Below, piece by piece: positions 9,893-42,819 of a DNA stretch of 64,000 bases (position 1 is its first letter; every line of letters begins with the position of its first letter). Source of the stretch: an uncultured Bacteroidia bacterium (GTDB lineage Bacteria; Bacteroidota; Bacteroidia; NS11-12g; UBA955). The notes beneath the pieces were generated by a model. That model was given only the letters and a program-made list of their open reading frames with translations, was not told the origin of the DNA and ran no database searches. Both the position numbers and the translations under genes were made by a program. The stretch covers positions 59,673 through 123,672 of the forward strand of contig CALSPH010000001.1 of NCBI GenBank assembly GCA_943788195.1, read 5' to 3'.

Positions 9893-10111
9893 TTACAAAT
9901 CCCAAACGCGCGTTCTAGCTTCGCGGTGGTATTTTCTAACATTCATCCAAAAAAGCAGTATGAGATAAATAAAAATCGGGCTGCCCAAGGTGAGAAATGA
10001 AGTATAAATGAAATAAAGTCGAATGCGCTGTGAAGAAACATTTAATTTCTCTGCAACTCGCTGGCAAACACCATACAGACTAGAATTCAATATCCATTTA
10101 TTCATTGGCAC
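9893..10111 (-). CDS. small membrane protein with a PspC domain
   Basis: LYGVCQRVAEKLNVSSQRIRLYFIYTSFLTLGSPIFIYLILLF follows the PspC-domain pattern (GVCgGlA...vRl.fv). It is 72 aa. Confidence 0.45.
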   Translation of the reverse strand: MPMNKWILNSSLYGVCQRVAEKLNVSSQRIRLYFIYTSFLTLGSPIFIYLILLFWMNVRKYHREARTRVWDL

Positions 10112-10214
10112 AAAGTTAAAGAATAGATGTTAAAACAAAAAAGCGGAAGTTATTTAACGAAAAAACATTGTTTATGTAGCTTTTGGGTTTCATCTTTGTT
10201 TTGCATAAAACCAC

Positions 10215-12617
10215 ATGATTAAGAAAATCATACAAAAATTTGGCACTGCGCCTGTATTCTTTACAGCGATATCGACTATTCTTGGTGCGGTAATGTTCCT
10301 TCGTTTTGGATATGCCGTGGGTGCAGTTGGCTTACAAGGAACGATTGCCATTATTATTATTGGCCATTTGGTTACCATTCCAACAGCAATGGCCATTGCA
10401 GAAATTTCTACGAATCAAAAGGTTGAAGGAGGAGGAGAGTATTATATCATATCCCGTTCCTTCGGATTGGTAATCGGCTCTACCATTGGCCTTGCACTAT
10501 ATTTATCTCAAGCCATTAGCATCGCTTTTTATGTGATGGCATTTGCAGAGGCTTTCACCCCTTTATTCAGCTGGATAATAGCCAGTTACAACCTCCCCGA
10601 CTGGCTAAAACTTGTATTAGAAACCAAACAAACTGTGGGTATACCTGCATTATTACTTTTAACATTCATTATGTTAAGTAAAGGGGCAGATCTGGGTGTC
10701 AAAACTTTGTATTACGTAGTGGCTATTTTAGGTATTTCACTTATTGCATTTTTCGTAGGTAATGGTGAATATATCACCCACCCGGCAGAAAATGGAAATG
10801 TGGCACAAACTGAATTAATGATTCAGGAATCAGATCAACTTAATTCCATTACCTCCGATACAAGCTTCTTAAAAAATCGTTTGCCTGATTCTATCCCCAT
10901 GCAGATTATTGATAGAAAAAAGCTGAGTAAAGTGGAAGTATCTGAGGCTAAAAACCCCACTCCTACAGCCCCATTAGCCATTGGATTCTTTACCATTTTT
11001 GCAATCATATTTCCAGCTTTTACTGGAATGACTGCTGGGGTTGGTCTTTCGGGTGATCTTAAGGACCCGGGCAAATCAATACCCAACGGAACTCTAATGG
11101 CTACAGTTGGGGGCATGATCATCTATATCTTCTTGGCCATAAAACTATCTGGTTCAGCCTCTCCTGCAGCTTTGGCTGATAAGAGCAACTTAATCATGGC
11201 GGATATAGCATGGCAAGGGTGGTGGCTCATTCCATTAGGTATGGCTGCTGCAACGATTTCATCTGCGTTGGGCTCTATTATGGTTGCCCCAAGAACGCTT
11301 CAAGCCATTGCAAAAGATCGCATATTTCCAGCGCGCCCAATGAATTTCTGGATTGCAAAAGGTACAGGCAAAAACAAGGAGCCATTCAACGCTTCGATTA
11401 TTACTGTTGCGATTGCGGCTGTGTTCATTTTAATGGGTGCGATTGATAGCGTTGCAGAAATTATTTCCATGTTTTTTATGGTAACCTATGGGTCTTTATG
11501 TCTCATTTCATTTTTAAATCATTTTGCAGCGGACCCCGCATATCGACCACGTTTTACGTCAAGATGGTACCTATCCTTGTTTGGAGCTATTGCATGTTTT
11601 GGGTTAATGTTTTTTATGAATCCTGCTTATGCTGCAATGGCCATTGGGCTGATGGTTGGCCTGTATTTCTTTATTAGTTATTACAATAGCGACAAGAAAT
11701 CAATAGCGGCCATATTCCAAGGGGTGATTTTCCAATTCAATAGAGGGTTGCATATTTTCTTGCAGAAGGCAGACAAGGAACAATTGAGAAGTTGGCGCCC
11801 AGCTGCCATAGCAATTTCAGAAGCTACTTTCCAACGATTGGGCCTTTTTGAACTAATTAAATGGACTTCACAGAAGTATGGTTTTGGAACATATATTCAT
11901 CATATCAATGGGTATATCTCAAAAAAATCTACTCAAGAAGCTTCAGAAATAAAGAATAAACTGATTGATATTACTGGAGCCAGTAAAAGTAAAGTATATG
12001 TAGATGCTATTATCAATAGTTCTTTTACAAGCTCCTTAGCTCAAGTTTTACAAATGCCTAGCATCGCAGGTATATCCAACAATTTGATCATGATGGAATA
12101 CGCCAGTAATGACAAGGAAAAACTGGGCCAAATAACTGAGAACTTGAGCCTGATCCGTTCCATGAAACACGATACAGTGATCTTAAAGAATAGTGAACGC
12201 GGTTTCGGGATTAAGCGCGAAATACATATTTGGATCACCGAATCGGATTTTGAAAATGCAAATCTGATGATTCTTCTCAGTTATATTATTTCAGGACATC
12301 GCGATTGGAAAGATTCAGAAATTAAGATTTTTGCCTGTTTCACGGATGATCATGCAGAAGAAGAAACCAATAAGTTGTTTAATTTGATGAAAACAGGCCA
12401 GCTGCCTATTTCACCCAATAATATAAAAGTGGTATCGCTGTCGGATGGACTCGCTCAGTATGAACTGATTCAAAAAGAATCTCGATTTGCTGATTTAAAT
12501 GTTGTTGGAATGCGCTACGAGCAAATCAAACATGAAGGAGCAAGTTTCTTTGAAAACTTCAATGAATTAGGAAACATCATTTTCGTAAATTCACTGGAAG
12601 AAAAATACATCAAGTAA
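10215..12617 (+). CDS. APC-superfamily transporter with a large C-terminal cytoplasmic domain (SLC12 cation-chloride-cotransporter-like, annotated as an amino acid permease)
   Basis: 800 aa in total. There are 12 predicted N-terminal TM helices bearing APC-type motifs, followed by a ~300-aa soluble C-terminal domain. Confidence 0.65.
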   Translation: MIKKIIQKFGTAPVFFTAISTILGAVMFLRFGYAVGAVGLQGTIAIIIIGHLVTIPTAMAIAEISTNQKVEGGGEYYIISRSFGLVIGSTIGLALYLSQAISIAFYVMAFAEAFTPLFSWIIASYNLPDWLKLVLETKQTVGIPALLLLTFIMLSKGADLGVKTLYYVVAILGISLIAFFVGNGEYITHPAENGNVAQTELMIQESDQLNSITSDTSFLKNRLPDSIPMQIIDRKKLSKVEVSEAKNPTPTAPLAIGFFTIFAIIFPAFTGMTAGVGLSGDLKDPGKSIPNGTLMATVGGMIIYIFLAIKLSGSASPAALADKSNLIMADIAWQGWWLIPLGMAAATISSALGSIMVAPRTLQAIAKDRIFPARPMNFWIAKGTGKNKEPFNASIITVAIAAVFILMGAIDSVAEIISMFFMVTYGSLCLISFLNHFAADPAYRPRFTSRWYLSLFGAIACFGLMFFMNPAYAAMAIGLMVGLYFFISYYNSDKKSIAAIFQGVIFQFNRGLHIFLQKADKEQLRSWRPAAIAISEATFQRLGLFELIKWTSQKYGFGTYIHHINGYISKKSTQEASEIKNKLIDITGASKSKVYVDAIINSSFTSSLAQVLQMPSIAGISNNLIMMEYASNDKEKLGQITENLSLIRSMKHDTVILKNSERGFGIKREIHIWITESDFENANLMILLSYIISGHRDWKDSEIKIFACFTDDHAEEETNKLFNLMKTGQLPISPNNIKVVSLSDGLAQYELIQKESRFADLNVVGMRYEQIKHEGASFFENFNELGNIIFVNSLEEKYIK

Positions 12618-13954
12618 TGATTAAACAAATTATTGCACGCCTTAAGGAGGCTTTTGATCTTCGCAGAGACAAAGACTTTCTTCATCGGATTGTAGAGACC
12701 ATCGAATCGGGGATTCAATTTAGAGGGGTTAACCTGTATATCCTCATTTTTGCTATCCTAATTTGTTCTTTGGGACTGGACATAAACTCCACAGCAGTTA
12801 TCATTGGCGCTATGCTTATTTCACCCTTGATGGGGCCAATTATTGGCTTGGGTTTCGCATTGGGAACTACCAATTGGGATCTGCTATTAAATGCGGGTAG
12901 AAATTACCTTATTGCTACCGCTTTAGCATTAACTACATCTACTCTCTATTTCCTCCTTTCACCCCTAGATTTAGAGCAAAGTGAGTTGCTCATGCGCACC
13001 CAACCCAGTATTTATGATGTTTTGATTGCTTTCTTTGGAGGGTTTGCTGGAATTATGGCTACTTCCTCTAAACTAAAAGGCAATGTTATTCCAGGTGTGG
13101 CCATTGCTACTGCACTTATGCCACCCTTGTGCACTGCAGGTTTTGGCCTTGCAGAAATGAATACCACCTATCTTTTTGGGGCATTATATCTGTATATCAT
13201 CAACACCGTTTTTATTGGAATGGCTACATTTCTTGCATGTCGTTTGCTAAGAATTCCTGTGAAACAAACTGAGCCTGAAAACATTAACAAGGCAAAAAAA
13301 ATTGCCGGTACCATAGCGCTTGTGACATTCTTGCCCGCAGTATATTTAGGCTTTAATTTATTGCAAAAAACACGTTTTAACAATAATGCAAAATCATTCA
13401 TTGAGCAAGCTTGTGTCTTAGAAGATAATTATCTCTTTTCCAGTAAGGTAGATTTTGACCACAAAACTATAGAATTGGTTTATGGAGGCGGTGATATTTC
13501 GGACTCAACCGTTCAAATGATTCTATCCAAAAAAGATCAATTCAATCTACAAAAAGCAAATATTCAAATCATAGAATCCTTCTCGAAACCCATTACAGAT
13601 ATCAAAGAAGGACTGCAAAGTGTCTATATGCAAATGGATGAAAAAGACATTCGCATTCAGCAATTAAAACAAGACTTTGATACCTTAAAGTTTCAATTGC
13701 AAGTGCTCCAAACACAAAGCGAACTGACTAACAAGTTTGATCAAATTATAACTGCTACGATTAAGAACAATGCCCAGGACAGTATACATCTGGAACTTAT
13801 CTTAAAACAAACCCTTACCAAAACGCGCAGAGGCAGAAAAATAAGCCCAGGAACACTGAATGGTACAGACAGTAATCTAATCATTCTTTTCGTACAAAAT
13901 AGACTTAACACAAAACATGTTTTGCTCGAAATAAATAATCTTAAAAAGGACTAA
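12617..13954 (+). CDS. DUF389-family membrane protein with a C-terminal coiled-coil
   Basis: The N-terminal hydrophobic domain matches the TIGR00341/DUF389 pattern (ISPLMGPIIGLGFALG). Its start overlaps the upstream stop in an ATGA, which implies translational coupling. Confidence 0.55.
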   Translation: MIKQIIARLKEAFDLRRDKDFLHRIVETIESGIQFRGVNLYILIFAILICSLGLDINSTAVIIGAMLISPLMGPIIGLGFALGTTNWDLLLNAGRNYLIATALALTTSTLYFLLSPLDLEQSELLMRTQPSIYDVLIAFFGGFAGIMATSSKLKGNVIPGVAIATALMPPLCTAGFGLAEMNTTYLFGALYLYIINTVFIGMATFLACRLLRIPVKQTEPENINKAKKIAGTIALVTFLPAVYLGFNLLQKTRFNNNAKSFIEQACVLEDNYLFSSKVDFDHKTIELVYGGGDISDSTVQMILSKKDQFNLQKANIQIIESFSKPITDIKEGLQSVYMQMDEKDIRIQQLKQDFDTLKFQLQVLQTQSELTNKFDQIITATIKNNAQDSIHLELILKQTLTKTRRGRKISPGTLNGTDSNLIILFVQNRLNTKHVLLEINNLKKD

Positions 13955-32411: not shown

Positions 32412-34253
32412 ATGTGCGGAATTGTCGCTTACATTGGCCAACAAGAGGCCTACCCAATTATCATCAACGGCCTGAAGAGGTTAGAATATAGAGGATATGA
32501 CAGTGCAGGAATTGCATTGATGAATAACGGGATGAAGGTATATAAAACCAAAGGGAAAGTATCTGACTTGGAAGCCGTTTGCGAAGGACAAGATATTGTC
32601 GCTAATCTGGGAATGGGTCATACACGCTGGGCAACACATGGCGAACCCAATGATAATAACGCGCATCCACACCTTTCTCAATCCGGCAATTTATCAGTAA
32701 TTCACAATGGGATTATTGAAAATTATGCCACCATTAAAGAAGCGCTGGTTAAACGTGGGCATTCCTTCAGCAGTGACACGGATACGGAAGTATTGGTTCA
32801 TTTAATAGAAGACATTCAAGAAAGCGAAAATGTTGCTATCGATGTTGCAGTGCGAATGGCTTTAAGTCAAGTAGTTGGGGCATATGCCATCGTCATATTG
32901 GTTCAAAATGAACCTACAAAAATGATCGGAGCACGTAAAGGCAGTCCTATGGTTGTTGGGATTGGCAAAGACAAAAAAGAATTCTTCATAGCAAGTGATG
33001 CCACCCCATTTTTAGAGTATACCCGCGATGTAATTTACCTTAATGATAATGAAGTGGTGGTATTAAAGGATGATGATTTTGAAATAACCACCATTGATAA
33101 CGTTAAGAAGACGCCTTTCATTGAAAAGTTAGAAATCAATTTAGAGCAAATAGAAAAAGGAGGGTATGAACATTTCATGCTCAAAGAAATCTACGAACAA
33201 CCTAAATCAATTTTTGATTCAATTCGTGGTAGAATGGATATTCCAAGTTCAACATTTCACATGCAAAGCATCCGGGAATATGAAAACAAGCTTAAGAATG
33301 TGAACCGCTTAATTATTATTGGTTGTGGCACAAGTTGGCATGCGGGCTTGGTGGGCGAATACCTTTTCGAAGAATTTGCACGTCTTCCAGTAGAAGTTGA
33401 ATATGCATCCGAGTTTAGATATCGCAATCCAGTTATATACCCGGAAGACTTGGTTCTTGCCATTTCTCAAAGTGGAGAAACTGCAGATACCTTGGCTGCG
33501 ATGGAACTTGCTAAGTCGAAAGGTGCAACTGTATTTGGCCTCTGCAATGTAGTGGGATCATCTATTCCACGTATGAGCGATGCAGGAGCATATACCCATG
33601 CTGGACCAGAAATTGGAGTAGCTTCTACTAAAGCTTTTACAGCCCAAGTATCGGTTCTTACACTGCTTGCATTAGCAGTAGCAGAACTAAGAGGAACCAT
33701 TACCAATGAGCGATTACAAATTTATTTAAGAGAGCTGGAAGCAGTGCCTAAATTGGTGGAAAAAGCACTTAAAGCGAATGATCATATTGTTAAAATTGCT
33801 GAAGAGTTTAAAGATGCACATAATTTCCTTTATTTAGGACGTGGTGTTAGCTTTCCAGTTGCCTTAGAAGGAGCGTTGAAATTAAAAGAAATTTCATACA
33901 TTCATGCAGAAGGTTATCCTGCAGCAGAGATGAAACATGGACCCATTGCCTTGATAGATGAGAATATGCCAGTAGTTGTTATAGCACCGAGAAAAGGAAT
34001 CTATGAAAAAGTGATTAGCAATATCCAAGAGGTTAAAGCGCGAAAAGGAAGAATTATTGCAATTGTCTCAGAAGGTGACACCAAGATCAAAGAAATAGCC
34101 GATTATGTCATAGAAATACCAGAAACAGAAGAAGCCCTGAGCCCTCTAATCTCAACCATACCCTTACAGTTATTGGCTTACCACATTGCTGTAATGCGCG
34201 GCTGCAATGTAGACCAACCAAGAAATTTGGCAAAATCAGTTACAGTGGAGTAA
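32412..34253 (+). CDS. glmS: glutamine-fructose-6-phosphate aminotransferase (isomerizing)
   Basis: An MCGIVAYIG N-terminal nucleophile, two SIS domains, and a length of 613 aa. Confidence 0.95.
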   Translation: MCGIVAYIGQQEAYPIIINGLKRLEYRGYDSAGIALMNNGMKVYKTKGKVSDLEAVCEGQDIVANLGMGHTRWATHGEPNDNNAHPHLSQSGNLSVIHNGIIENYATIKEALVKRGHSFSSDTDTEVLVHLIEDIQESENVAIDVAVRMALSQVVGAYAIVILVQNEPTKMIGARKGSPMVVGIGKDKKEFFIASDATPFLEYTRDVIYLNDNEVVVLKDDDFEITTIDNVKKTPFIEKLEINLEQIEKGGYEHFMLKEIYEQPKSIFDSIRGRMDIPSSTFHMQSIREYENKLKNVNRLIIIGCGTSWHAGLVGEYLFEEFARLPVEVEYASEFRYRNPVIYPEDLVLAISQSGETADTLAAMELAKSKGATVFGLCNVVGSSIPRMSDAGAYTHAGPEIGVASTKAFTAQVSVLTLLALAVAELRGTITNERLQIYLRELEAVPKLVEKALKANDHIVKIAEEFKDAHNFLYLGRGVSFPVALEGALKLKEISYIHAEGYPAAEMKHGPIALIDENMPVVVIAPRKGIYEKVISNIQEVKARKGRIIAIVSEGDTKIKEIADYVIEIPETEEALSPLISTIPLQLLAYHIAVMRGCNVDQPRNLAKSVTVE

Positions 34254-34318
34254 GGTTATGGGATAAGAAATGTAACTCCGGACTCATATTAGTATATTTC
34301 TCTGTATCAATAACTTCT

Positions 34319-34636
34319 ACAAAACTATGGGAATCCAATTATTCGGATTACCAACAGTATTTGTACGACAGAATTAAGGGTTTTATTGAGAATTCTGTAA
34401 CCCCTATTGGTTATCGTCGTATTTCAAAAATCTTCAATGATGAGGGGTTAAAAACACCTCGTGGTACTTCATTCACAAACTCCAAAGTACATTCTATGTA
34501 CAAAAAGGGGTTGATTCGGGAAGAAAGAATGAATCGTGAAGATATAGTTGAGGTATCTCCTGTTACTATTGAATTGATAATACACCCAATTTTAGGTAGG
34601 ATACGTCGTAGTCCCTATGAGAAGAGATTTACCTAA
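34319..34636 (+). pseudogene. remnant of a large serine recombinase/resolvase (internal 'recombinase' domain fragment only)
   Basis: YQQYLYDRIKGFIENSVTPIGYRRISKIFNDEGLKTPRGTSFTNSKVHSMYKKGL matches the ...IA.xLNexGixTPRG..W..stV..IL segment of serine recombinases. There is no catalytic N-terminal domain, and the open frame begins inside the glmS 3' end. Confidence 0.5.
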
Positions 34637-35312
34637 AAACTCTAACCACCTTCAACCACTTCAATACTCGTTTGAACATCTCTCAGAAAATAAATTGAGA
34701 AATACTGTGATATTTTAGTCGTTTAATGTTTCAGAACCATATTTATAGATAACCTAAGTGTTCCAATCATAGGGTTCAAACACTTTTACCCCTTTATCCA
34801 ACAACTCACATCGGGGAGGGAAAGGATTAGGGAGAAGTCGGTTAGTAATCTGTAGGATTGAAATAATATCCGAACATAACGGATGAGGTTTCACCGATAG
34901 GGTTAAAAATGGTTATGGTATAAGATAGATATGGGGGATTCAAACTGACTGGTCTAATCGAAATCTATAACTGAAGAATGAGTTCATTCATTAACAGATA
35001 CTCAAATCTGTAAGGGGTTTGGTGTATCTAATTGATAACAGGTTATTAAATAATAACTGGAATGTTGAGGATTCACACTACGTATGAATCACTCAACGAT
35101 GAGATGATTCTGATGAAATCAGAACCACTCATCATAGGATGTTTAAATACTGAAAGATAAAGGAGTTAATATGAAACAAACACAAGAACAATTACATAAT
35201 GAACTAATGGATAAACTTAGTGAGTTGTATACCGTCAGCAAAAAGTGCACTAATTAGGTTAATTATTTAATATAGAGGTTTTAATAAATTTATAACCTTA
35301 AAAGAAATCTAA

Positions 35313-35660
35313 ATGACGAACAAAAAAAGCACAAGTTCATTAATCAGTGACTTAAAACGAAAGACAAGAAAGAAGTATTCATCAGAAGAAAAGATCCGCA
35401 TTATTATCCAAGGCATTCGGGGAGAGGACTCCATAGCGGAGTTATGCAGAAAAGAAGGCATAAGCCAGACCAACTATTACAAATGGAGTAAGGACTTCAT
35501 GGAAGCAGGAAAACGCAGATTAGCAGGCGATACAATGCGTGAGGCTAATACTTCTGAAGTTCAAGAGCTCAAAGGAGAGAACCATTGCTTGAAGGAGCTT
35601 GTAGCTGAACTCTCCTTAGAGGTGAGAACTTTGAAAAAAAACGTAAATGGAGACGACTAG
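35313..35660 (+). CDS. IS3-family transposase OrfA (HTH/leucine-zipper DNA-binding part)
   Basis: 115 aa and basic, with an HTH (IAELCRKEGISQTNYYKWSKDF) and a coiled-coil tail. Confidence 0.8.
   Translation: MTNKKSTSSLISDLKRKTRKKYSSEEKIRIIIQGIRGEDSIAELCRKEGISQTNYYKWSKDFMEAGKRRLAGDTMREANTSEVQELKGENHCLKELVAELSLEVRTLKKNVNGDD
35636..35642 (+). promoter_or_regulatory. programmed -1 ribosomal frameshift heptamer A_AAA_AAC at the orfA/orfB overlap
   Basis: The heptamer is correctly phased X_XXY_YYZ in the orfA frame. orfB (35675-36649) lies in the -1 frame. Translation after the slip reads ...KKRKWRRLVKKKYMHYSQ into OrfB. Confidence 0.6.
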
Positions 35661-35674
35661 TAAAGAAGAAGTAT

Positions 35675-36649
35675 ATGCATTACAGTCAGCAAGAAAAATA
35701 CGAGTTGATTCAACTTGTAGAACAATCCGATTTAGGGGTTATCCGAACCTTAAGGGAACTCAAAATTAATAAAACTACCTTCTACAACTGGTACAGCGCT
35801 TACAGCAAACAGGGCTATGAAGGTCTTGCGCGCAAGCCCAGTAAAAGACAAGGTTCATGGAACAGGATTAATGAATTAGACCGTGATAAGGTAGTTGAGA
35901 TAGCCTTAGAGAAGCCAGAACTGTCTCCTAGAGAAGTCGCTTGGTACATTACTGATACCTATAGCTATTATATCAGTGAGTCGAGTGTATATCGTATCCT
36001 AAAAAGCAATGGACTTATCTCCGTTCCATCTTTTAGAATAATGAGTGCCTCAGACAGTTTTCATGATAAAACAACACAGGTCAATCAAATGTGGCAGACT
36101 GACTTCACTTACTTCAAAATCTATGGTTGGGGGTGGTATTACCTCTCAACAGTACTGGACGATTACTCTAGGTTTATTGTTAACTGGAAGTTGTGCTCAA
36201 CCATGAAGGCAGAAGATGTTAAGAATACCTTGGATGAGGCAATATTGGCTACCGAAGTACCTGAGAGTAACAGACCTAGGCTTTTATCAGATAACGGATC
36301 TTGTTATATATCCCATGAGCTTGCAGCGTACCTTCAAGTAAAAAAGATGAAACATGTTAGAGGTAGACCCTTGCATCCTCAGACCCAAGGCAAAATAGAG
36401 CGTTATCACAGATCCATGAAAAATGTGGTAAAACTAGACAACTATTTTAGTCCTGAACAACTGGAAAGAAAACTAAAAGAGTTTGTGGAGTATTACAACT
36501 ATAAACGATACCATGAATCCTTACAAAACCTAACGCCTGCTGAGGTCTATTATGGAAAAGGGCAACTCAAACTCAAACAAAGAAATCAAACCAAAATCAA
36601 AACATTAAAAGCTAGAAAAAAACAGTATCATAAATTTAACCTAAATTAG
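35675..36649 (+). CDS. IS3-family transposase OrfB (DDE/RNase-H-like integrase catalytic domain)
   Basis: WQTDFTYF...LSDNGSCYIS...YHESLQNLTPAEVY shows D, D(35)E spacing and the conserved K/R typical of the rve integrase core. Confidence 0.85.
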   Translation: MHYSQQEKYELIQLVEQSDLGVIRTLRELKINKTTFYNWYSAYSKQGYEGLARKPSKRQGSWNRINELDRDKVVEIALEKPELSPREVAWYITDTYSYYISESSVYRILKSNGLISVPSFRIMSASDSFHDKTTQVNQMWQTDFTYFKIYGWGWYYLSTVLDDYSRFIVNWKLCSTMKAEDVKNTLDEAILATEVPESNRPRLLSDNGSCYISHELAAYLQVKKMKHVRGRPLHPQTQGKIERYHRSMKNVVKLDNYFSPEQLERKLKEFVEYYNYKRYHESLQNLTPAEVYYGKGQLKLKQRNQTKIKTLKARKKQYHKFNLN

Positions 36650-36768
36650 CACCAACTCTATCTTACGTTTTTAACTCAAAAGTGCAAATTTCGCTGAAGA
36701 CATACACAGAACCCGAGTTTGAGTTTATAAGTAGAAATTATATATTTACAAAGTTAATTCGAACAAAA

Positions 36769-37246
36769 ATGAAAAACTTAATAATTTTTTCTTTATTCGT
36801 CCTATCAAGTTGTGGCAATAAAATAGATAACAATCAGGCTCAATCGACTGAAGTAAAAAAACTATAGTCAACCACTATTACAGAATGAATACTTAGGAAA
36901 CTATCACGGAATTCAGCCAAGTTACATTATGAAAAATCAATATGGTGACGACATGATAATTGGCGGTCAAAAGGTTTCAGTTCCTTCCATTGATTTTAAG
37001 TTTCTACTAAAAGAGGATGGCATTGCTGGTTTGCAACAAACAAACCTTGATGATATTAGCAGAGTTTATTATAATGGCACTCTAAAAATACTTAATGAAG
37101 ATGTCAATTCAGTATCTGTGGAATGCTCGCTAAGCGATGGTGAATATTCTAAACCTAAATACACTTTAAAAATAAATAAATCAGATAAAACTGCTGTTTG
37201 CAAGGGAGCAAATGAACCTGAATTCAGCATAAAGAAACAACACTAA
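36769..37246 (+). pseudogene. small lipoprotein split by a frameshift inside an A7 homopolymer (36854-36860)
   Basis: The signal and lipobox MKNLIIFSLFVLSSCG ends at a stop at 36865-36867. The ORF 36929-37246 stays open upstream to 36857 in another frame. Removing one A joins them into a single ~159-aa lipoprotein. Confidence 0.45.
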
Positions 37247-37261
37247 AAACTGACGCAAATA

Positions 37262-38633
37262 ATGAAAAAAGTAATATCAAATATAAGTTTCATAATAATT
37301 GTTATAATTTTAGGTGCAACATTAAATGGTTGTAATAATCGAGAGACTAATCATCCTTTTAAATCAAAGGAAAATAAAGACCTTTTAAATCTCCCCAGCA
37401 TCACCTCAGAGCATCCCCTTTTTCAGCTTAGGATTGACTCTCTTATAAATATTAAAAGTGACACGGGTGTAATAAGCTTTAAATCCGAACTTAACTTTTT
37501 CCAAAGTGGATTCCCTCTCTACTCTCTTGACACAACAAATACACTTGAAGGGCTTTCGCGTATATACGTTTATGAGGATAACAGACTTGACTCTATAATC
37601 ATTCATCACAAATCTGGTAAAGTATTTGAAAACGTACTATATGCTTCTCAAAAATTAATAGTTACAACAGTTGGCAGTCCTCAGGGGTATGTTTTTGAAC
37701 CAGAAACCGAAGAGTATTCTTATATTCATTCTGTAGAATTTTGCTTACAACACATTGATAAAAATCTCAATTTGTCAACGGAAATATTTATCACAGATAA
37801 ATATTTTGATGGTGACAGACAAAATCCTTATTCTAACAAAGATTATTTATTTAATAACCTACCTGAATTCAATGATTTAGAGCAATTAACAAATATTGAT
37901 AATTCTAAAATTATTGATTATGCAGCAAATCATGGGGGGGGAATATTTCTATGATAGAGAATCTAATTCATATAAAAAACAACCATATAATATCAGAAAT
38001 CTTGTGCTCGAAAAAGCTACAGACAGTGTTCTCGTATTTAGAACATTAGATTATAATTACCTGACGGGGGAAGATTTCAGGAAAAGAAAAAACATATCGA
38101 TGGAATTTGCATGGAATGCATCTGCACCTGCTTGGATTGAGAGGTTCCCAGAAGATATAAGTACTACAGATATTATATTAGAATATCCTCAAGGGGCCAG
38201 CAATATGGAAGCTTACGAAAATCAACATATAAAAAAAACTGAAACTGAAATAGATTTAACAGTAGATGTAAAAGTTTATCAATCAAGTATTATAGATAGA
38301 TATAAATCTTGGATTAGTTGGAAAGAAAGAGAAAGAGAAAGAGAAAAAAGACGACAAGAAATAAACGATAATAGTAATAACTCAAATAAGTCTTCAACGA
38401 GTAACAACATAGATGGACGGTATTCTTATGAAGACCAGACTTCTACATATAGATTAACAGTTTCAAATGGAAGATGGAGTTACAGTACAGCTATAAAAAT
38501 ATCTGGAGTCGCTCAAACAGATTATTCTTCAGGAACAGAACGAAATGGAGTGTTATACAAGGGAGGAGCAAGTGTAGGAAACGTAAATGGAAATTGCGCT
38601 CAAGTAGGAAGTAGTCCACAGATGTGTAAGTAA
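37262..38633 (+). pseudogene. lipoprotein of ~457 aa split into 230-aa and 245-aa ORFs at a G8 homopolymer (37934-37941)
   Basis: The N-terminal part carries signal and lipobox LGATLNGC. The frames switch exactly at the poly-G run. The C-terminal part contains a KEREREREKRRQE tract encoded by (GAAAGA)n and an Asn/Ser-rich region. Confidence 0.45.
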
Positions 38634-38836
38634 AAAAAACATATCCCCAAGAAGGCATTAGAATTACTCTTAAAACTATCTGAATTTGCTTTACCTAAGC
38701 TCAGAGCTATAGAGGTTAATAATGAGTCAGAGGAGGCTAAGCATACCTCATTAGATATTAATATAATTGATACTGGGGTGCCTTTTGCGAGTTGTGAGGC
38801 GGATGTGGTTGATTAACCTTCCATTTATTAGCATCT

Positions 38837-39920
38837 TTATATTTTAAGCACCCTAAAGTGCTGTTTAAATTCATCTCCGATGCTGATGAAATACATTCCA
38901 TCTGGCAGACCTTTTAGATTTATTTCTGTGTCTTCTCCTTCAATCACATCAGACAATACTTCTACTCCTGCGCTAGTGTATATTGTAATGTTTTGTCGTA
39001 TTAAGTTAGTTGATGCTTTAATACGTATTCTACTTGTAGTAGGATTGGGATAAATCGTAAACTCAATATTAGGATACTTATAAATACTGGCACTATTACT
39101 TGTATCCACCAATGTCGGCATCCAAGTCAAGCCAATACTATCACCCCACAGATATTCAGCTAATTCAGGATGGTCAATAAAAGGATTGCGGTTGTGCTGG
39201 TAAAAGCTATCGATGATGTTATTCCTATTACGTTCCCAGTTGCTAACTGTATCAATCCTATTCCAATGAAGGAGAGTGATTTAAGCGAGCTTGTAAGGGA
39301 CTTTGGTCAGCATTATTAAGTAATGTATTAGTCAACTCTAAATCAGGCTCAGAGCCTTCTCCTTCGTATCTGACAGCCATATAAAATATCATTCTAGCTA
39401 CATCTCCTTTGACTGCGTCAGGTGGTTCAAATGTCCATAAATCAGCATCACGTTTAGACCCTGTATTAAAGCCATTATCTATTACATCTACACAAGTAAT
39501 GCAAGTGTCAAAATTTCTATTATTCCTTGTGGAGTTGACACTAACATCGCAAGGTCTTAGGTGATGTACATCTGTTCCTGCACCATTGCTTGTACCAAAG
39601 TCTCCTCTAGATTTTGCCCAAACGTGTTCCCGACTCCAGCCAGCAGCACTGTTGTATTCTTGTGCAGCATCTACACTTCTCCCTGAATATAGTAGGATTA
39701 CATTATTTGCATTTGCTGTATCTCTATCCGTATGCTTTAGTATGTCCCACACATCTGTCGATGATGAGGTATAAGGGAACTCTGTATGATTTTTGATTAT
39801 TTGGTTCAGTTCATACTTCAATGAATCATCAGACTTTTTATGAGCAGATAGATAGTAAGTACTGTCCTGTGCAGAAAGCAGGTTTGAGATAAGGAGTAAA
39901 GCGAATACAATAAATTTCAA
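38837..39920 (-). pseudogene. secreted endonuclease I-family DNase with a T9SS type-A C-terminal sorting domain, disrupted by a frameshift near 39283-39310
   Basis: The upstream ORF (39258-39920) has a signal peptide and EndA/NucM motifs (EHVWAKSRG, DVHHLRPCDVSVNSTRNNRNFD, MIFYMAVRYEG). The domain continues in another frame (TLLHWNRIDTVSNWERNRNNIIDSFYQHNRNPFIDHPELAEYLWG) and runs into a Por_Secre_tail CTD that ends VLKI. Confidence 0.65.
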
Positions 39921-40015
39921 GATGTAAATATATTATTAAATCTATTCTATTACCAATTGACTAGCTGACTAAACGAATTTAAACCCTAAAAGATTACACT
40001 AATATCCAAAGATGG

Positions 40016-40540
40016 GTGTTTAAATTTTCACCATTTGTGGAATCAAACATGAACAAACGGAAGAATGTAGTTGGTAATAGTTGGAGAATGGACGAGACCT
40101 ACATCAAGGTAGCAGGTAAGGACAGATACTTATATCGAGCTGTAGATAAGCAAGGAAATACGGTTGACTTCCTGCTAACTAAACGGAGAATGAAGGGGTC
40201 AGCACAGAAGTTTCTGAACAAAGCCATAGGCAACAATGGAAAACCAAGACTGATCAATATTGATAAAAGTGGAGCAAATACACAGGCCATACGTATTGTG
40301 AATCAATATAGCTTGACCTTCAAGAAAATCAGAATCAGGCGAGTTAAGTATTTAAACAATATTGTTGAGCAAGACCATCGGACGATTAAACGACGGATAG
40401 CAATAACTACAGGATTCAAGGAGTTCGAATCCGCTCAAAGAACACTAGCAGGAATAGAAATCATAAACATCATTAGAAAGAATCAAATAGTAAATCCGAG
40501 GAGAAGTTGGTTTGCAACCTTTAAGTCTTTGGCTGCTTAA
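40016..40540 (+). pseudogene. IS6-family (IS26-like) transposase remnant; the N-terminal ~60 aa are missing
   Basis: WRMDETYIKVAGKDRYLYRAVDKQGNTVDFLLTKRR...INIDKSGANTQA...EQDHRTIKRR aligns with the IS6/IS26 Tnp DDE core. No IS6 inverted repeats were identified. Confidence 0.65.
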
Positions 40541-40947
40541 TGAAATGATAAATCAGCTACTTTTGGAAACCAATGGGATTAATGCGACAGAACCAAAAAA
40601 CTTTCCTTTGTGTGAAATTAAAATCCATTGCAGACAAGTATCAAACAAAGTTAACTAGACCAGCTTTTTTTAATAAAGACTTTAACTTAAAGTGGTGATG
40701 CGCCAAGTTCCTCGAAATCTTCACGTTTAATCGAATTGATAATGGATAAATCATTTACTTTTAGTAAAACTGACCTAACTCCATTGCCGTTTTTATTGTT
40801 GATGGTAAAATACAATTTGAGTTTAGATTTGGTTTGTTTGATTTTCTCTGGAGGTAATTTTGTATACCGTCAGCAAAAAGTGCACTAATTAGGTTAATTA
40901 TTTAATATAGAGGTTTTAATAAATTTATAACCTTAAAAGAAATCTAA

Positions 40948-41295
40948 ATGACGAACAAAAAAAGCACAAGTTCATTAATCAGTGACTTAAAACGAAAGAC
41001 AAGAAAGAAGTATTCATCAGAAGAAAAGATCCGCATTATTATCCAAGGCATTCGGGGAGAGGACTCCATAGCGGAGTTATGCAGAAAAGAAGGCATAAGC
41101 CAGACCAACTATTACAAATGGAGTAAGGACTTCATGGAAGCAGGAAAACGCAGATTAGCAGGCGATACAATGCGTGAGGCTAATACTTCTGAAGTTCAAG
41201 AGCTCAAAGGAGAGAACCATTGCTTGAAGGAGCTTGTAGCTGAACTCTCCTTAGAGGTGAGAACTTTGAAAAAAAACGTAAATGGAGACGACTAG
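40948..41295 (+). CDS. IS3-family transposase OrfA (copy 2)
   Basis: Identical to the 35313-35660 protein. Confidence 0.8.
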   Translation: MTNKKSTSSLISDLKRKTRKKYSSEEKIRIIIQGIRGEDSIAELCRKEGISQTNYYKWSKDFMEAGKRRLAGDTMREANTSEVQELKGENHCLKELVAELSLEVRTLKKNVNGDD

Positions 41296-41309
41296 TAAAG
41301 AAGAAGTAT

Positions 41310-42284
41310 ATGCATTACAGTCAGCAAGAAAAATACGAGTTGATTCAACTTGTAGAACAATCCGATTTAGGGGTTATCCGAACCTTAAGGGAACTCAAAA
41401 TTAATAAAACTACCTTCTACAACTGGTACAGCGCTTACAGCAAACAGGGCTATGAAGGTCTTGCGCGCAAGCCCAGTAAAAGACAAGGTTCATGGAACAG
41501 GATTAATGAATTAGACCGTGATAAGGTAGTTGAGATAGCCTTAGAGAAGCCAGAACTGTCTCCTAGAGAAGTCGCTTGGTACATTACTGATACCTATAGC
41601 TATTATATCAGTGAGTCGAGTGTATATCGTATCCTAAAAAGCAATGGACTTATCTCCGTTCCATCTTTTAGAATAATGAGTGCCTCAGACAGTTTTCATG
41701 ATAAAACAACACAGGTCAATCAAATGTGGCAGACTGACTTCACTTACTTCAAAATCTATGGTTGGGGGTGGTATTACCTCTCAACAGTACTGGACGATTA
41801 CTCTAGGTTTATTGTTAACTGGAAGTTGTGCTCAACCATGAAGGCAGAAGATGTTAAGAATACCTTGGATGAGGCAATATTGGCTACCGAAGTACCTGAG
41901 AGTAACAGACCTAGGCTTTTATCAGATAACGGATCTTGTTATATATCCCATGAGCTTGCAGCGTACCTTCAAGTAAAAAAGATGAAACATGTTAGAGGTA
42001 GACCCTTGCATCCTCAGACCCAAGGCAAAATAGAGCGTTATCACAGATCCATGAAAAATGTGGTAAAACTAGACAACTATTTTAGTCCTGAACAACTGGA
42101 AAGAAAACTAAAAGAGTTTGTGGAGTATTACAACTATAAACGATACCATGAATCCTTACAAAACCTAACGCCTGCTGAGGTCTATTATGGAAAAGGGCAA
42201 CTCAAACTCAAACAAAGAAATCAAACCAAAATCAAAACATTAAAAGCTAGAAAAAAACAGTATCATAAATTTAACCTAAATTAG
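41310..42284 (+). CDS. IS3-family transposase OrfB (copy 2)
   Basis: Identical to the 35675-36649 protein. Confidence 0.85.
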   Translation: MHYSQQEKYELIQLVEQSDLGVIRTLRELKINKTTFYNWYSAYSKQGYEGLARKPSKRQGSWNRINELDRDKVVEIALEKPELSPREVAWYITDTYSYYISESSVYRILKSNGLISVPSFRIMSASDSFHDKTTQVNQMWQTDFTYFKIYGWGWYYLSTVLDDYSRFIVNWKLCSTMKAEDVKNTLDEAILATEVPESNRPRLLSDNGSCYISHELAAYLQVKKMKHVRGRPLHPQTQGKIERYHRSMKNVVKLDNYFSPEQLERKLKEFVEYYNYKRYHESLQNLTPAEVYYGKGQLKLKQRNQTKIKTLKARKKQYHKFNLN

Positions 42285-42342
42285 CACCAACTCTATCTTA
42301 CGTTTTTAACTCAAAAGTGCAAATTTCGCTGAAGACATACAC

Positions 42343-42819
42343 TCTGGTGATCAAAATGATTATGTTGCTGTTTCCATGGAACACTGGGGGACGAATTTAA
42401 ATCGTTATATCAACAAAAAAACTACCATCGGCTTAGCTATAGAGTCTGTTGAAGACAGTACCAAAATGAACATTAAGGTTTTTGTACGCGGGAATGGGTT
42501 TGACAACTCTAAATCCTATAAATTGACCGTTTATATTATTGAGGACAATATTAGTACAGACAATCAAGTTGGAAAACCAGCAGGTTTCAAACATCAAATG
42601 GTGTTAAGAGGCAGTCTTACCAATGCGATTGGGGACGACATTAAGTTAAAAGAAAATGTGACCTTGGAAAAGGAATACTCGTTTAGTTTAAGCGGTTCCT
42701 TTGTTGTAGACAACCTAAAAATATTGGCCTTTGTAAATACAGTTGGTGGAACAACATCTGATCGATTAATTCATAACGCACAACAAGTAAAGGCAGGTAA
42801 AACAGCTAATTGGGATTAA
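42343..42819 (+). pseudogene. C-terminal portion of an Omp28-related outer-membrane lipoprotein, truncated at its 5' end by IS3 copy 2
   Basis: The reading frame is open right from the IS boundary (SGDQNDYVAVSMEHWG...). LTVYIIEDNI...HQMVLRG resembles the Omp28 family. No signal peptide or start remains. Confidence 0.4.

What the first reader, a model, noticed from the sequence alone, without database searches (positions are those of the whole stretch)
34254..42375. Accessory island inserted immediately 3' of glmS (attTn7-type hotspot) and made of decayed mobile elements
The housekeeping gene glmS ends at 34253. The next ~8.1 kb contains no core functions. A serine-recombinase fragment's open frame begins inside the glmS stop region. 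A 590-bp structured non-coding stretch follows. Then come two identical IS3 copies, an IS6 transposase remnant, a truncated Omp28-like gene and frameshifted cargo. Core-like genes resume only at ~42.8 kb. The glmS 3' end is the classical insertion site of Tn7-like transposons and other integrative elements, and this layout is what a repeatedly hit, partly eroded hotspot looks like.
Basis: partly seen in the sequence, partly recalled or inferred. Interest (0 to 1): 0.7.

Follow-up and report, generated by a model that had tools for sequence, protein, structure and literature searches.

The report
Serine-recombinase island hotspot behind glmS
The 8 kb after glmS is a real, strain-variable island, but it was built by large serine recombinase elements that cross over inside the last codons of glmS (not by Tn7), and the "recombinase fragment" beside glmS looks like the detached tail of a recombinase gene that is whole only when the element is excised.

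Summary
The described features are all present. glmS ends at 34253. An open frame runs out of its stop region, followed by 588 nt without ORFs. Then come two 100% identical 1483-bp IS3 copies, an IS6 remnant, a truncated Omp28 gene and frameshifted cargo.

About 20 metagenome contigs encoding the identical GlmS show at least four layouts. All diverge exactly at the glmS stop codon, so the hotspot is real. No empty site was seen.

The machinery is not Tn7. Three lineages of large serine recombinase (LSR) elements share the core ACAGTGGAGTA(A/G), which is the last codons of glmS. The window keeps only the left junction of one such element; IS3 events removed its LSR end.

The ORF after glmS is a conserved helix-turn-helix module. 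It is under purifying selection, yet usually has no start codon. In unintegrated junctions it follows the LSR gene. In two lineages it is in frame (650–672 aa fusions). In the window's lineage it is in the -1 frame, behind an invariant G_GGA_AAG or C_CCA_AAG heptamer and a stop codon.

My inference is that the LSR gene spans attP and integration severs its tail. This resembles SSV-type or Mx8 integrases, but in a serine recombinase and with a probable -1 frameshift.

The parts
32412..34253 (+). glmS (613 aa). Its last codons form the bacterial half of the attachment site.
   Evidence: Pfam SIS and GATase domains. The identical protein is found on 19 contigs with different downstream content.
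34240..34253 (.). att core TTACAGTGGAGTAA (codons T-V-E-stop). This is the attL crossover region and the true left edge of the island.
   Evidence: All layouts diverge here. The same core is repeated at the far end of complete elements: L003 21591, L188 ~10900, and L138, L158 and L181. The stop codon is TAA or TAG depending on which element is inserted.
34253..34636 (+). 'Module': a 127-codon open frame, -1 relative to glmS, with no ATG/GTG/TTG before 34361. It is an RD-like helix-turn-helix domain. I interpret it as the severed distal part of an LSR-C reading frame.
   Evidence: - 473 homologues of 90-217 aa, none with a Pfam domain.
- Frame open in 59/59 unique sequences; codon-position diversity 0.168/0.114/0.374; 50 of 71 have no start codon.
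- AF2 model pLDDT 79.6; best fold matches are HTH domains, including SPbeta and Bxb1 integrase.
- L107 shows the same module (100% aa) directly behind an LSR-C 3' end and the core.
34637..35170 (.). Non-coding spacer of the element. The first ~90 nt are conserved with L021/L022; the rest is unique and contains two strong hairpins at about 35053-35146.
   Evidence: blastn/tblastx; fold z -2.5 and -3.4; no Rfam family.
35171..35224 (+). First 18 codons of an 'orf86'-family gene. In intact elements this gene precedes an HTH_17 (excisionase-like) gene. Here it is cut by IS3.
   Evidence: Match to L022 1723-1983. HTH_17 Pfam hit for the next gene in L022.
35225..36707 (+). IS3-family insertion sequence, copy 1 (orfA 35313-35660; orfB 35675-36649 in the -1 frame).
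   Evidence: Exact extent; HTH_Tnp_1 and rve domains; A_AAA_AAA slippery run and imperfect terminal inverted repeats; no target duplication.
36708..40015 (.). Cargo. Lipoprotein-like ORFs (36682-38633, + strand) and an endonuclease I gene with a T9SS sorting tail (38837-39920, - strand). Both are split by single-base frameshifts, most of them in homopolymer runs.
   Evidence: Pfam Endonuclease_1 and Por_Secre_tail. These genes are intact (158, 456 and 360 aa) in L008. Indel list.
40016..40540 (+). IS6-family transposase remnant, truncated at the N-terminus.
   Evidence: PF13610 DDE_Tnp_IS240, E 1e-41, covering residues 21-156 of 174.
40860..42342 (+). IS3 copy 2, identical to copy 1. Its right end abuts an internal position of omp28.
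   Evidence: Relative to layout D (L019), 1505 bp directly right of this copy are missing: a small resolvase, a second module, the attR core and the 5' end of omp28.
42343..42819 (+). 3' part of omp28 (residues ~115-272; ORF called from 42376). Conserved chromosome resumes here.
   Evidence: Pfam Omp28. The full-length 272-aa gene is present in L003 and L013-L015. tblastn.

Best explanation
**The hotspot.** The last codons of glmS (core ACAGTGGAGTA[A/G]) are the chromosomal attachment site for a family of integrative islands in marine Bacteroidota. These islands are moved by large serine recombinases (LSRs). Three LSR lineages use this site:
- **A and B:** the LSR gene abuts glmS on the opposite strand.
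- **C:** a small 'module' ORF abuts glmS, and the LSR lies at the far end on the glmS strand.

Each element supplies its own copy of the last codon(s) and stop codon, so glmS stays intact.

**The window.** It holds the left junction (attL, module, and the start of orf86) of a C-type element. The rest of that element, including its small resolvase, LSR-C and attR, was lost through IS3 insertions, IS3-IS3 recombination and an IS3-adjacent 1.5-kb deletion. That deletion also removed the 5' end of omp28. What remains is IS3-flanked cargo. This much is shown by comparison.

**The module (inferred).**
- The module is not a separate gene. It is the distal part of the LSR reading frame, which spans attP.
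- In A/B elements it is in the same frame as the LSR.
- In C elements it would be reached by a programmed -1 ribosomal frameshift at G_GGA_AAG or C_CCA_AAG, placed 0-2 codons before the LSR stop.
- Integration cuts the frame at the core. The long form, LSR plus an extra helix-turn-helix domain, can therefore be made only from the excised element. In the chromosome the module is silent.
- I think this most likely ties the make-up of the recombinase, and hence its site preference or directionality, to the integration state.
For: **Hotspot**
- Identical GlmS occurs on contigs with at least four layouts, all breaking at 34252-34256.
- LSR-A (556 aa) and LSR-B (570 aa) both read into the antisense of the glmS end. 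Both are bona fide LSRs, as is LSR-C.
- The core is directly repeated at both ends of complete elements: L003, L025 and L188. L188 is the cultured Muricauda sp. MAR_2010_75, with a 9.6-kb element between glmS and a TonB receptor gene.
- About 60 of 80 metagenome loci have the module directly after glmS, in many species.
- I predicted that LSR-C lies at the far end on the + strand. This was confirmed in L108, L138, L158, L181 and L188.

**Erosion**
- The window equals L019 minus 1505 bp next to IS3 copy 2.
- There is no LSR anywhere in the 64-kb window.

**Split ORF**
- The module is under purifying selection, yet 50 of 71 copies lack a start codon.
- LSR-B homologues fall into two length classes, ~553-570 aa and ~650-672 aa. 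P0121 (658 aa, 98% identical) is LSR-B plus the module.
- LSR-C proteins are almost uniformly 617-627 aa and end in xGK or LPK.
- The heptamer is invariant at the nucleotide level in 15 distinct sequences. When the amino acids change to LPK, it switches from G_GGA_AAG to C_CCA_AAG.
- GTG, GGA and AAG are only 15%, 39% and 31% of their codon families in these genes.
- Heptamer-to-core spacing is exactly 60 nt in 14 of 15 sequences. The -1 frame is open over that stretch in 13 of those 14; in the 15th (L119) a 2-nt deletion puts the equivalent reading into the 0 frame, so its -1 frame is open but reads other sequence. The 0 frame stops within 0-2 codons in 13 of 15.
- In four attP-type junctions the -1 frame runs on through the whole module, 124-147 codons. 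One is L107, which has the window's own module.
- In L188 the LSR -1 frame at attR and the module frame at attL are in the same register relative to the core.
Against: - No empty glmS-omp28 site was found in this population; attB is inferred from L003 attL and attR.
- No close relative exists in the species-level genome set; the best GlmS match is 73%.
- Frameshifting is inferred from sequence only. No convincing downstream RNA structure was found: no covariation and hairpin z of -1 to -2.
- Heptamer conservation could partly reflect a conserved C-terminal GK motif.
- attP-type junctions could come from tandem arrays rather than from excised circles.
- The ~660-aa A/B fusions sit on short short-read contigs. 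There, a 268-350-bp inverted repeat cannot be phased, so their orientation may be an assembly choice.
- The function of the module is unknown.
Confidence: 0.72

Rival explanations
1. This is a Tn7-like (attTn7) hotspot. TnsD-type targeting of the glmS 3' end places transposons just downstream of glmS, and the present content is what is left of such transposons.
For: The location directly behind glmS matches the classical Tn7 site (established knowledge). The island is made of mobile-element debris.
Against: - No TnsA/B/C/D/TniQ-type genes appear in the window or in any of about 25 sibling layouts.
- Junctions lie inside the stop-codon region, and the core is repeated directly at both ends. That is a site-specific recombination signature, not a 5-bp target duplication ~23 bp downstream.
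- LSR genes sit at the junctions.
Confidence: 0.03
2. The hotspot and LSR integration are as in the best explanation, but the module is an independent small gene, for example a directionality factor or regulator placed next to attP. It would be translated on its own from a non-canonical start, or by re-initiation after glmS or LSR termination, not as part of the LSR.
For: - The family members called by gene finders are 90-217 aa.
- A/R-type modules at attR often have their own ATG.
- A/B elements carry a separate 'LSR C-terminus plus module' ORF of 180-215 aa with a start codon.
- A downstream stimulatory RNA structure is not demonstrable.
Against: - 70% of C-type modules have no ATG/GTG/TTG.
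- The module is in the same -1 register behind both glmS and LSR-C.
- There is an invariant slippery heptamer with a compensating G_GGA_AAG to C_CCA_AAG change, a fixed 60-nt spacing and an open -1 frame.
- A/B lineages encode direct in-frame fusions.
Confidence: 0.2
3. There is no site-specific element here. The island is an IS3 composite transposon (IS3-cargo-IS3) that happened to land between glmS and omp28, and the ORF after glmS is a chance open frame.
For: Two identical direct IS3 copies flank the cargo. Neither the pair nor either copy has target duplications, so this cannot be excluded for the cargo segment alone.
Against: - The 970 bp between glmS and IS3 copy 1 is homologous to the left end of LSR elements in many species. 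It is 87% identical at nucleotide level in L021/L022, and 100% at amino-acid level in L106/L107.
- Other strains carry LSR genes at exactly this junction.
- The open frame is conserved and selected.
Confidence: 0.04

Closest known systems
SCC elements (SCCmec) integrated by Ccr large serine recombinases at the 3' end of rlmH/orfX in staphylococci
   Same: - LSR-driven islands inserted within the last codons of a conserved housekeeping gene without inactivating it.
- A short core repeated at each junction.
- Tandem arrays.
- Recombinase-less remnants.
- Mosaic cargo (own knowledge of SCC; features here).
   Different: - Different phylum, target gene (glmS) and LSR lineages.
- The LSR sits at the very edge of the element.
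- Its reading frame appears to continue across the att core into a module.
- A small resolvase is a constant companion.
Tn7 / attTn7 (TnsD-directed insertion downstream of glmS)
   Same: The same logic of exploiting the highly conserved glmS 3' end as a safe landing site. The same gene.
   Different: - Tn7 uses a DDE transposase system (TnsABC+D), inserts about 23 bp past the stop codon and makes a 5-bp duplication (own knowledge).
- Here there are no tns genes.
- Crossover is inside the last codons, with a core of 11 nt or more repeated directly.
SSV-type 'suicidal' tyrosine integrases of archaea and the Mx8 IntP integrase
   Same: attP lies within the integrase reading frame, so integration splits or re-tails the integrase gene (PMC7253208 abstract; PMC6070905). 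Here too the frame is cut at the core and would be rebuilt on excision.
   Different: - Those are tyrosine recombinases; this is a serine recombinase.
- Only an accessory C-terminal HTH module is detached here, and the catalytic and known DNA-binding domains stay intact.
- In lineage C the join needs a -1 frameshift.
Programmed -1 frameshifting at X_XXY_YYZ heptamers (IS3-family orfAB, dnaX)
   Same: A canonical heptamer (G_GGA_AAG or C_CCA_AAG) lies next to a 0-frame stop. It would give a short product and a C-terminally extended product from one gene. The IS3 in this very window uses A_AAA_AAA.
   Different: - Not reported for LSRs in the library searched (0 papers).
- The extension lies across a recombination site, so it exists only in one DNA state.
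- No convincing stimulatory structure was found.
Serine integrase with a recombination directionality factor, including engineered integrase-RDF fusions (PMC5737554, listed)
   Same: A C-terminally attached extra protein part could change which att pairs the integrase recombines.
   Different: The fusion here would be natural and dependent on DNA state. Nothing shows that the module is an RDF. Separate HTH_17/orf86 genes are also candidate excision factors.

Membership tests
Large-serine-recombinase integrative element | Encodes an LSR (Resolvase catalytic domain + Recombinase domain + zinc ribbon/coiled coil) | tested here: not met
   No LSR anywhere in the 64-kb window (tblastn). It is met in sibling layouts and homologous elements: LSR-A, LSR-B and LSR-C have PF00239 + PF07508 (± PF13408). 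The window therefore holds a remnant, not a complete member.
Large-serine-recombinase integrative element | Short identical core at both junctions (attL/attR), with the target gene reconstituted | tested here: inconclusive
   The window keeps only attL (34240-34253). attR was deleted with 1505 bp next to IS3 copy 2. Both junctions are present in L003, L025, L188, L138, L158 and L181.
Large-serine-recombinase integrative element | Presence/absence or content polymorphism at the site, with an observable empty attB and excised attP | tested here: inconclusive
   Content polymorphism is clear. attP-type junctions were found (L107, L108, L112, L137, L180). An empty attB was not found in this population.
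Large-serine-recombinase integrative element | The recombinase catalyses attP x attB recombination at a central dinucleotide | not testable with these tools
   Needs biochemistry or in vivo assays.
Tn7-like transposon at attTn7 | tnsA/B/C plus tnsD/tniQ genes | tested here: not met
   No such Pfam families among the window ORFs or in the called genes of sibling loci.
Tn7-like transposon at attTn7 | Insertion about 23 bp downstream of the glmS stop, with a 5-bp target duplication | tested here: not met
   Divergence starts at or inside the stop codon. The repeated sequence is the core of 11 nt or more, ACAGTGGAGTA.
IS3 family | DDE (rve) transposase made from orfA/orfB by a -1 frameshift; terminal inverted repeats ending TG...CA | tested here: met
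   HTH_Tnp_1 and rve domains. orfB is in the -1 frame with A_AAA_AAA in the overlap. Ends are TGTATAC.../...GACATACA.
IS3 family | 3-5-bp target-site duplication flanking each copy | tested here: not met
   No matching flanks for either copy or for the pair. This is consistent with IS-mediated deletion or recombination.
IS6 family | Complete DDE_Tnp_IS240 transposase (~230-250 aa) with terminal inverted repeats | tested here: not met
   Only 174 aa. The DDE domain is present but the N-terminal part is missing. Ends were not searched.
Programmed -1 ribosomal frameshift site | X_XXY_YYZ heptamer in the 0 frame, with an open -1 frame downstream | tested here: met
   This feature lies in related loci, not in the window. 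G_GGA_AAG or C_CCA_AAG occurs in 15/15 sequences. The -1 frame is open up to the core in 14 of 15, counting L119, whose 2-nt deletion puts the equivalent reading in the 0 frame. It is open through the whole module in 4/4 attP-type sequences.
Programmed -1 ribosomal frameshift site | Downstream stimulatory RNA structure | tested here: inconclusive
   There are weak hairpins in 7/10 (z -1 to -2) and no covariation. The adjacent 0-frame stop may serve instead.
Programmed -1 ribosomal frameshift site | A frameshifted protein product is made | not testable with these tools
   Needs a reporter assay, proteomics or ribosome profiling.
SSV-type / Mx8-type integrase with attP inside its ORF | Tyrosine recombinase fold | tested here: not met
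   The recombinases here are serine recombinases. The system works like that family in one respect but is not a member.

The most novel reading that the evidence does not exclude
In a widespread family of glmS-targeting islands, the large serine recombinase gene spans its own attP. An extra C-terminal DNA-binding module is attached only when the element is excised. It is attached directly in two lineages and by a conserved -1 ribosomal frameshift in the third. Integration detaches and silences the module. This would be a DNA-state-dependent switch of recombinase composition, not described for serine recombinases. In the A/B lineages a 268-350-bp inverted repeat flanking the LSR body could additionally re-attach the module by inversion while the element is integrated.
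Probability: 0.5. Interest if true: 0.8.

Novelty: new variant of a known kind. Interest (0 to 1): 0.6.

Why it matters
- **A second machinery at glmS.** The glmS 3' end, known as the Tn7 landing pad, is also a major attachment site for serine-recombinase islands in marine Bacteroidota. This includes at least one cultured strain. The islands often carry defence or surface-protein cargo.
- **A possible new control principle.** If the split-frame reading is right, serine integrases have a way to control what the enzyme is made of that depends on whether the element is integrated. That is relevant to the open problem of directionality control.
- **Practical interest.** These integrases recognise a very conserved target sequence, which may be useful for genome-engineering applications.
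- **An annotation problem.** It would also explain a large family of 'hypothetical' start-less ORFs that gene callers mis-annotate next to glmS.

Tried and rejected
- **Group II intron.** I considered that 34637-35224 plus the ATG at 35171 was the 5' part of a group II intron with a truncated maturase. I rejected this because there was no Rfam hit even at E≤10. The short ORF is instead the start of an 86-aa gene that precedes an HTH_17 gene in intact elements.
- **Decayed small resolvase.** I checked whether the 588-nt stretch was a decayed small resolvase on the minus strand. tblastx found no similarity.
- **tRNA or tmRNA target.** None is present in the window.
- **GC contrast as evidence of foreign origin.** It is not informative.
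- **Empty site.** I searched for it among the exact-protein contigs. I also compared right-flank sequences against all fetched loci. None was found.
- **Close relatives.** A GlmS scan of species-level genomes gave a best match of only 73% identity. It was therefore useless for an empty-site comparison, although it showed short LSR scars behind glmS in a few species.
- **Module as a normal C-terminal domain of all LSRs.** This was rejected for lineage C, where protein lengths are fixed at 617-627 aa.
- **Frameshift-stimulating hairpin.** The evidence was not convincing. The conserved GGGGT(A/T)A(G/C)AAT motif after the heptamer may be a DNA motif instead.
- **GlmS-module fusion by frameshifting.** There is no slippery site in the shared core (reading).
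- **AlphaFold database fold search.** That library was unavailable.

Full report
**1. Observation**

- glmS (613 aa, SIS and GATase domains) ends at 34253.
- The frame of the 91-aa ORF 34361-34636 is open back through the glmS stop. Window 34253-34636 translates without a stop, and has a weak sub-threshold hit to Pfam Recombinase PF07508.
- 34637-35224 has no ORF of 50 aa or more, no Rfam family and no tRNA. It folds only modestly better than shuffles, with z = -2.5 and -3.4.
- Two IS3-family copies, 35225-36707 and 40860-42342, are 1483 bp and 100% identical. They have an A_AAA_AAA frameshift site and TGTAT... ends but no target duplications.
- Between the two copies lie lipoprotein-like ORFs, an endonuclease I gene with a T9SS tail, and an N-terminally truncated IS6 transposase.
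- omp28 is present only from about residue 115 of 272.
- The cargo frameshifts relative to a sibling contig are single-base insertions, three of the four in homopolymer runs, and may be long-read errors.
- GC content does not set the island apart.

**2. The site is polymorphic, and the break is at the stop codon**

The exact GlmS protein occurs on 19 metagenome contigs, and the exact CcmB protein from the far side on more than 20. Four layouts appear.
- **Layout A (L001, L002):** glmS, then a 556-aa large serine recombinase (LSR-A) on the opposite strand, a 57-aa ORF, then truncated omp28.
- **Layout B (L003, L004, L007, L013-L015):** glmS, then a different 570-aa LSR (LSR-B) on the opposite strand, two small resolvases, IS3 copies, cargo, and full-length omp28.
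- **Layout C (the window, L005, L006, L008, L016, L018, L020).**
- **Layout D (L019):** the window's cargo joined through IS3 to the right end of layout B.

Similarity between layouts stops at window 34252-34256. Even the stop codon differs by layout: TAA in A and C, TAG in B. The crossover is therefore inside the last codons, and each element brings its own end of glmS. No contig with glmS directly followed by omp28 was seen. The empty site is inferred from the L003 junctions as ...CAGTTACAGTGGA(G/A)TAATTTTTGCACATAG...ATG(omp28).

**3. What integrates here**

- LSR-A and LSR-B both run into the antisense of the glmS end...TVPST|LLHSN* and ...AAYSTVTDF|AKFLGW....
- In L003 the core TTACAGTGGA recurs as a direct repeat 60 nt upstream of omp28.
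- L025, from another species, shows the same with TTACTGTGGA(A/G)TAG.
- The ORF after glmS in the window has homologues at the far end of layout B, on the minus strand next to the core. It also has one at an internal site in L003, where it is fused in frame to a copy of the last ~78 codons of LSR-B.
- A profile of these three 'modules' finds 473 proteins of 90-217 aa, all unannotated.
- A metagenome scan returned 80 loci of the window's type. In about 60 of them the module directly follows glmS on the same strand, in hosts whose GlmS is only 59-81% identical to the window's.
- I predicted that in this third lineage (C) the recombinase must lie at the far end, on the glmS strand and reading outward. 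This is what L108, L138, L158 and L181 show: glmS | module | orf86 | HTH_17 | cargo | small resolvase | LSR-C | core | host flank.
- The cultured Muricauda sp. MAR_2010_75 (L188) shows the same arrangement.
- All three LSRs have the Resolvase plus Recombinase (± zinc ribbon) architecture.
- No Tn7-type genes occur in any layout.
- In the paper library, no hit linked serine recombinases with glmS as an integration site.

**4. How the window's island got its present form**

- Window 34256-34726 is 87% identical in nucleotide sequence to the left end of a C-type element in another species (L021/L022).
- The ATG at 35171 starts a homologue of the 86-aa gene that follows the module there. IS3 copy 1 cuts it after 18 codons.
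- On the right, the window equals L019 except that 1505 bp immediately right of IS3 copy 2 are missing. The missing segment holds a small resolvase, an A-type module, the attR core and the first ~330 nt of omp28. This is an IS3-adjacent deletion.
- The same IS3 sits at shared positions with different partners in layouts B and D, so IS3 copies have served as recombination substrates.
- There is no LSR in the 64-kb window.
- The island is therefore a C-type left end and an A-type right end (now deleted), joined through IS3-flanked cargo.

**5. The module**

*It is coding, but usually has no start codon.*
- In 59 distinct C-type sequences the module frame is open in all, and both other frames carry stops in all.
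- Diversity at codon positions 1, 2 and 3 is 0.168, 0.114 and 0.374.
- Yet 50 of 71 copies, the window's included, have no ATG, GTG or TTG between the preceding in-frame stop and the conserved Trp.

*Its fold is a DNA-binding domain.*
- An AlphaFold model (pLDDT 79.6) shows a beta-hairpin, a three-helix HTH and further strands.
- The best fold matches are generic HTH domains, including the recombinase domain of the SPbeta and Bxb1 integrases.

*In lineages A and B it is in frame with the LSR across the core.*
- LSR-B homologues fall into two length classes, ~553-570 aa (ending in antisense glmS) and ~650-672 aa.
- P0121 (658 aa, 98% identical) is LSR-B residues 1-553 followed by the module.

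*In lineage C it sits in the -1 frame behind a slippery heptamer.*
- The proteins are almost uniformly 617-627 aa and end in ...VGK, LGK(E), EGK, TGK or LPK.
- At the DNA level the last codons are GTG/TTG GGA AAG or CTC CCA AAG in 15 of 15 distinct sequences. These give the canonical slippery heptamers G_GGA_AAG and C_CCA_AAG.
- These codons are minority choices in these genes: 15%, 39% and 31%.
- The 0 frame stops within 0-2 codons in 13 of 15 sequences.
- The distance from the heptamer to the end of the core is exactly 60 nt in 14 of 15.
- The -1 frame is open over that stretch in 13 of those 14. In the 15th (L119) a 2-nt deletion moves the equivalent reading into the 0 frame.
- In the four junctions where LSR-C, core and module are contiguous, the -1 frame continues through the whole module, 124-147 codons. 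One is L107, whose module is 100% identical in protein to the window's.
- In Muricauda the -1 frame of the LSR at attR (...NSYRGV) and the module frame at attL (GYGGIEKSV...) have the same register relative to the core. Excision would therefore rebuild one frame.

*What is not shown.*
- A stimulatory RNA structure was not demonstrable.
- No paper in the library links LSRs and programmed frameshifting.

**6. Mechanism proposed**

*Shown:*
- site-specific LSR elements use the glmS end;
- the order LSR - core - module is conserved;
- integration separates the LSR from the module.

*Inferred:*
- The LSR reading frame spans attP.
- A long LSR-module form is made only from the unintegrated element, by read-on in A/B and by a -1 frameshift in C.
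- In the chromosome the module is untranslated.

The effect of the extra HTH on site choice or directionality is unknown. It could be an integration-specific DNA-binding domain or a built-in directionality factor. I put about 0.9 on the hotspot and LSR part, about 0.85 on the erosion history, and about 0.5-0.6 on the split-frame and frameshift part.

**7. Comparison with known systems**

- **SCC elements:** the island biology is closest to SCC elements integrated by Ccr LSRs in the end of rlmH.
- **Tn7:** the choice of glmS parallels Tn7, but the machinery and the exact site differ.
- **SSV-type and Mx8 integrases:** an integrase frame that spans attP and is cut by integration is known for SSV-type 'suicidal' integrases and for Mx8 IntP. 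Both are tyrosine recombinases.
- **Heptamer-plus-stop arrangement:** it resembles IS3 orfAB or dnaX.

The finding is thus a new variant of known kinds, not a new category.

**8. Caveats**

- attP-type junctions may derive from tandem arrays rather than circles. L108 and L180 look like arrays.
- The long A/B forms are on short contigs, where a 268-350-bp inverted repeat cannot be phased by short reads. The long-read-like contigs all show the short form.
- The window's own lineage has no close genome in the species-level set.

Noticed in passing
L003 11822-12089 vs 13481-13748; L024 8346-8608 vs 9998-10260; L025 6372-6723 vs 9946-10297; L186; L187: In A/B-type elements the body of the LSR gene is flanked by an inverted copy of its own last 268-350 bp, followed by a second core and a second module.
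- The two copies are 97-100% identical within a genome.
- They are about 87% identical between genomes, which points to concerted evolution.
- Assemblies show both orientations of the LSR body: a 570-aa form reading into glmS, and a 658-aa LSR-module fusion.
- Short reads cannot phase the repeat.
- The layout fits a circle with two inverted attP regions, like the 2-micron plasmid, integrated through one of them.
   Followed up: partly
window 36855, 37934, 38632, 39278: The frameshifts that split the cargo genes are single-base insertions, three of them in A or G runs, relative to sibling contig L008, where the genes are intact. The sibling contigs have Flye-style names, so these may be long-read homopolymer errors rather than decay.
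   Followed up: partly
L106 727-1107, L107 129-509 (JGI marine metagenomes): The module is 100% identical in protein to the window's, but sits behind a glmS that is only ~64-67% identical. This implies recent transfer of the same element between distant hosts.
   Followed up: no
L165 10001-11140; L106 727-2260; L023 10064-11483: These are miniature derivatives of 1-1.5 kb. They keep only the module at the glmS side and the last codons of LSR-C plus the core at the other side. There are also arrays with two modules in tandem. Both suggest non-autonomous remnants, perhaps mobilised in trans, and serial integration.
   Followed up: no
L003 14064-14687 and 20629-21270; L024 10581-11204; L025 10638-11255 and 13846-14475; L108 3627-4247; L188 3612-4217: A small (~200-213 aa) resolvase/invertase-type serine recombinase accompanies the LSR in nearly every element. 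In A/B types its 3' end overlaps the 3' end of a module by about 10 nt, in convergent orientation. Its role is unknown; it might be multimer resolution or inversion.
   Followed up: no
L024 12884-20543; L025 8310-9945; L003 15057-15512: The cargo of sibling elements is enriched in defence or addiction genes. L024 has an N6/N4 methyltransferase with a ParB domain, an SNF2 helicase and an Eco57I-like enzyme. L025 has HipBA. L003 has a restriction endonuclease fragment.
   Followed up: no
P0113 (173 aa): One module copy is fused in frame behind an Xre-type HTH_3 protein instead of an LSR or glmS. The module can therefore be joined to other upstream frames.
   Followed up: no
L076 11843-11982, L083 11773-12048, L067 11773-11901: Species-representative genomes (Flavobacteriales UBA4466, UBA3364, Vicingaceae) carry only a short LSR-B-like C-terminal scar directly after glmS, with no recombinase. 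These look like fossils of earlier integrations.
   Followed up: no
window 35053-35146: Two adjacent perfect-stem hairpins lie just upstream of the truncated orf86 start. They account for most of the fold signal of the 588-nt stretch. They match no RNA family and were found nowhere else in the window.
   Followed up: partly
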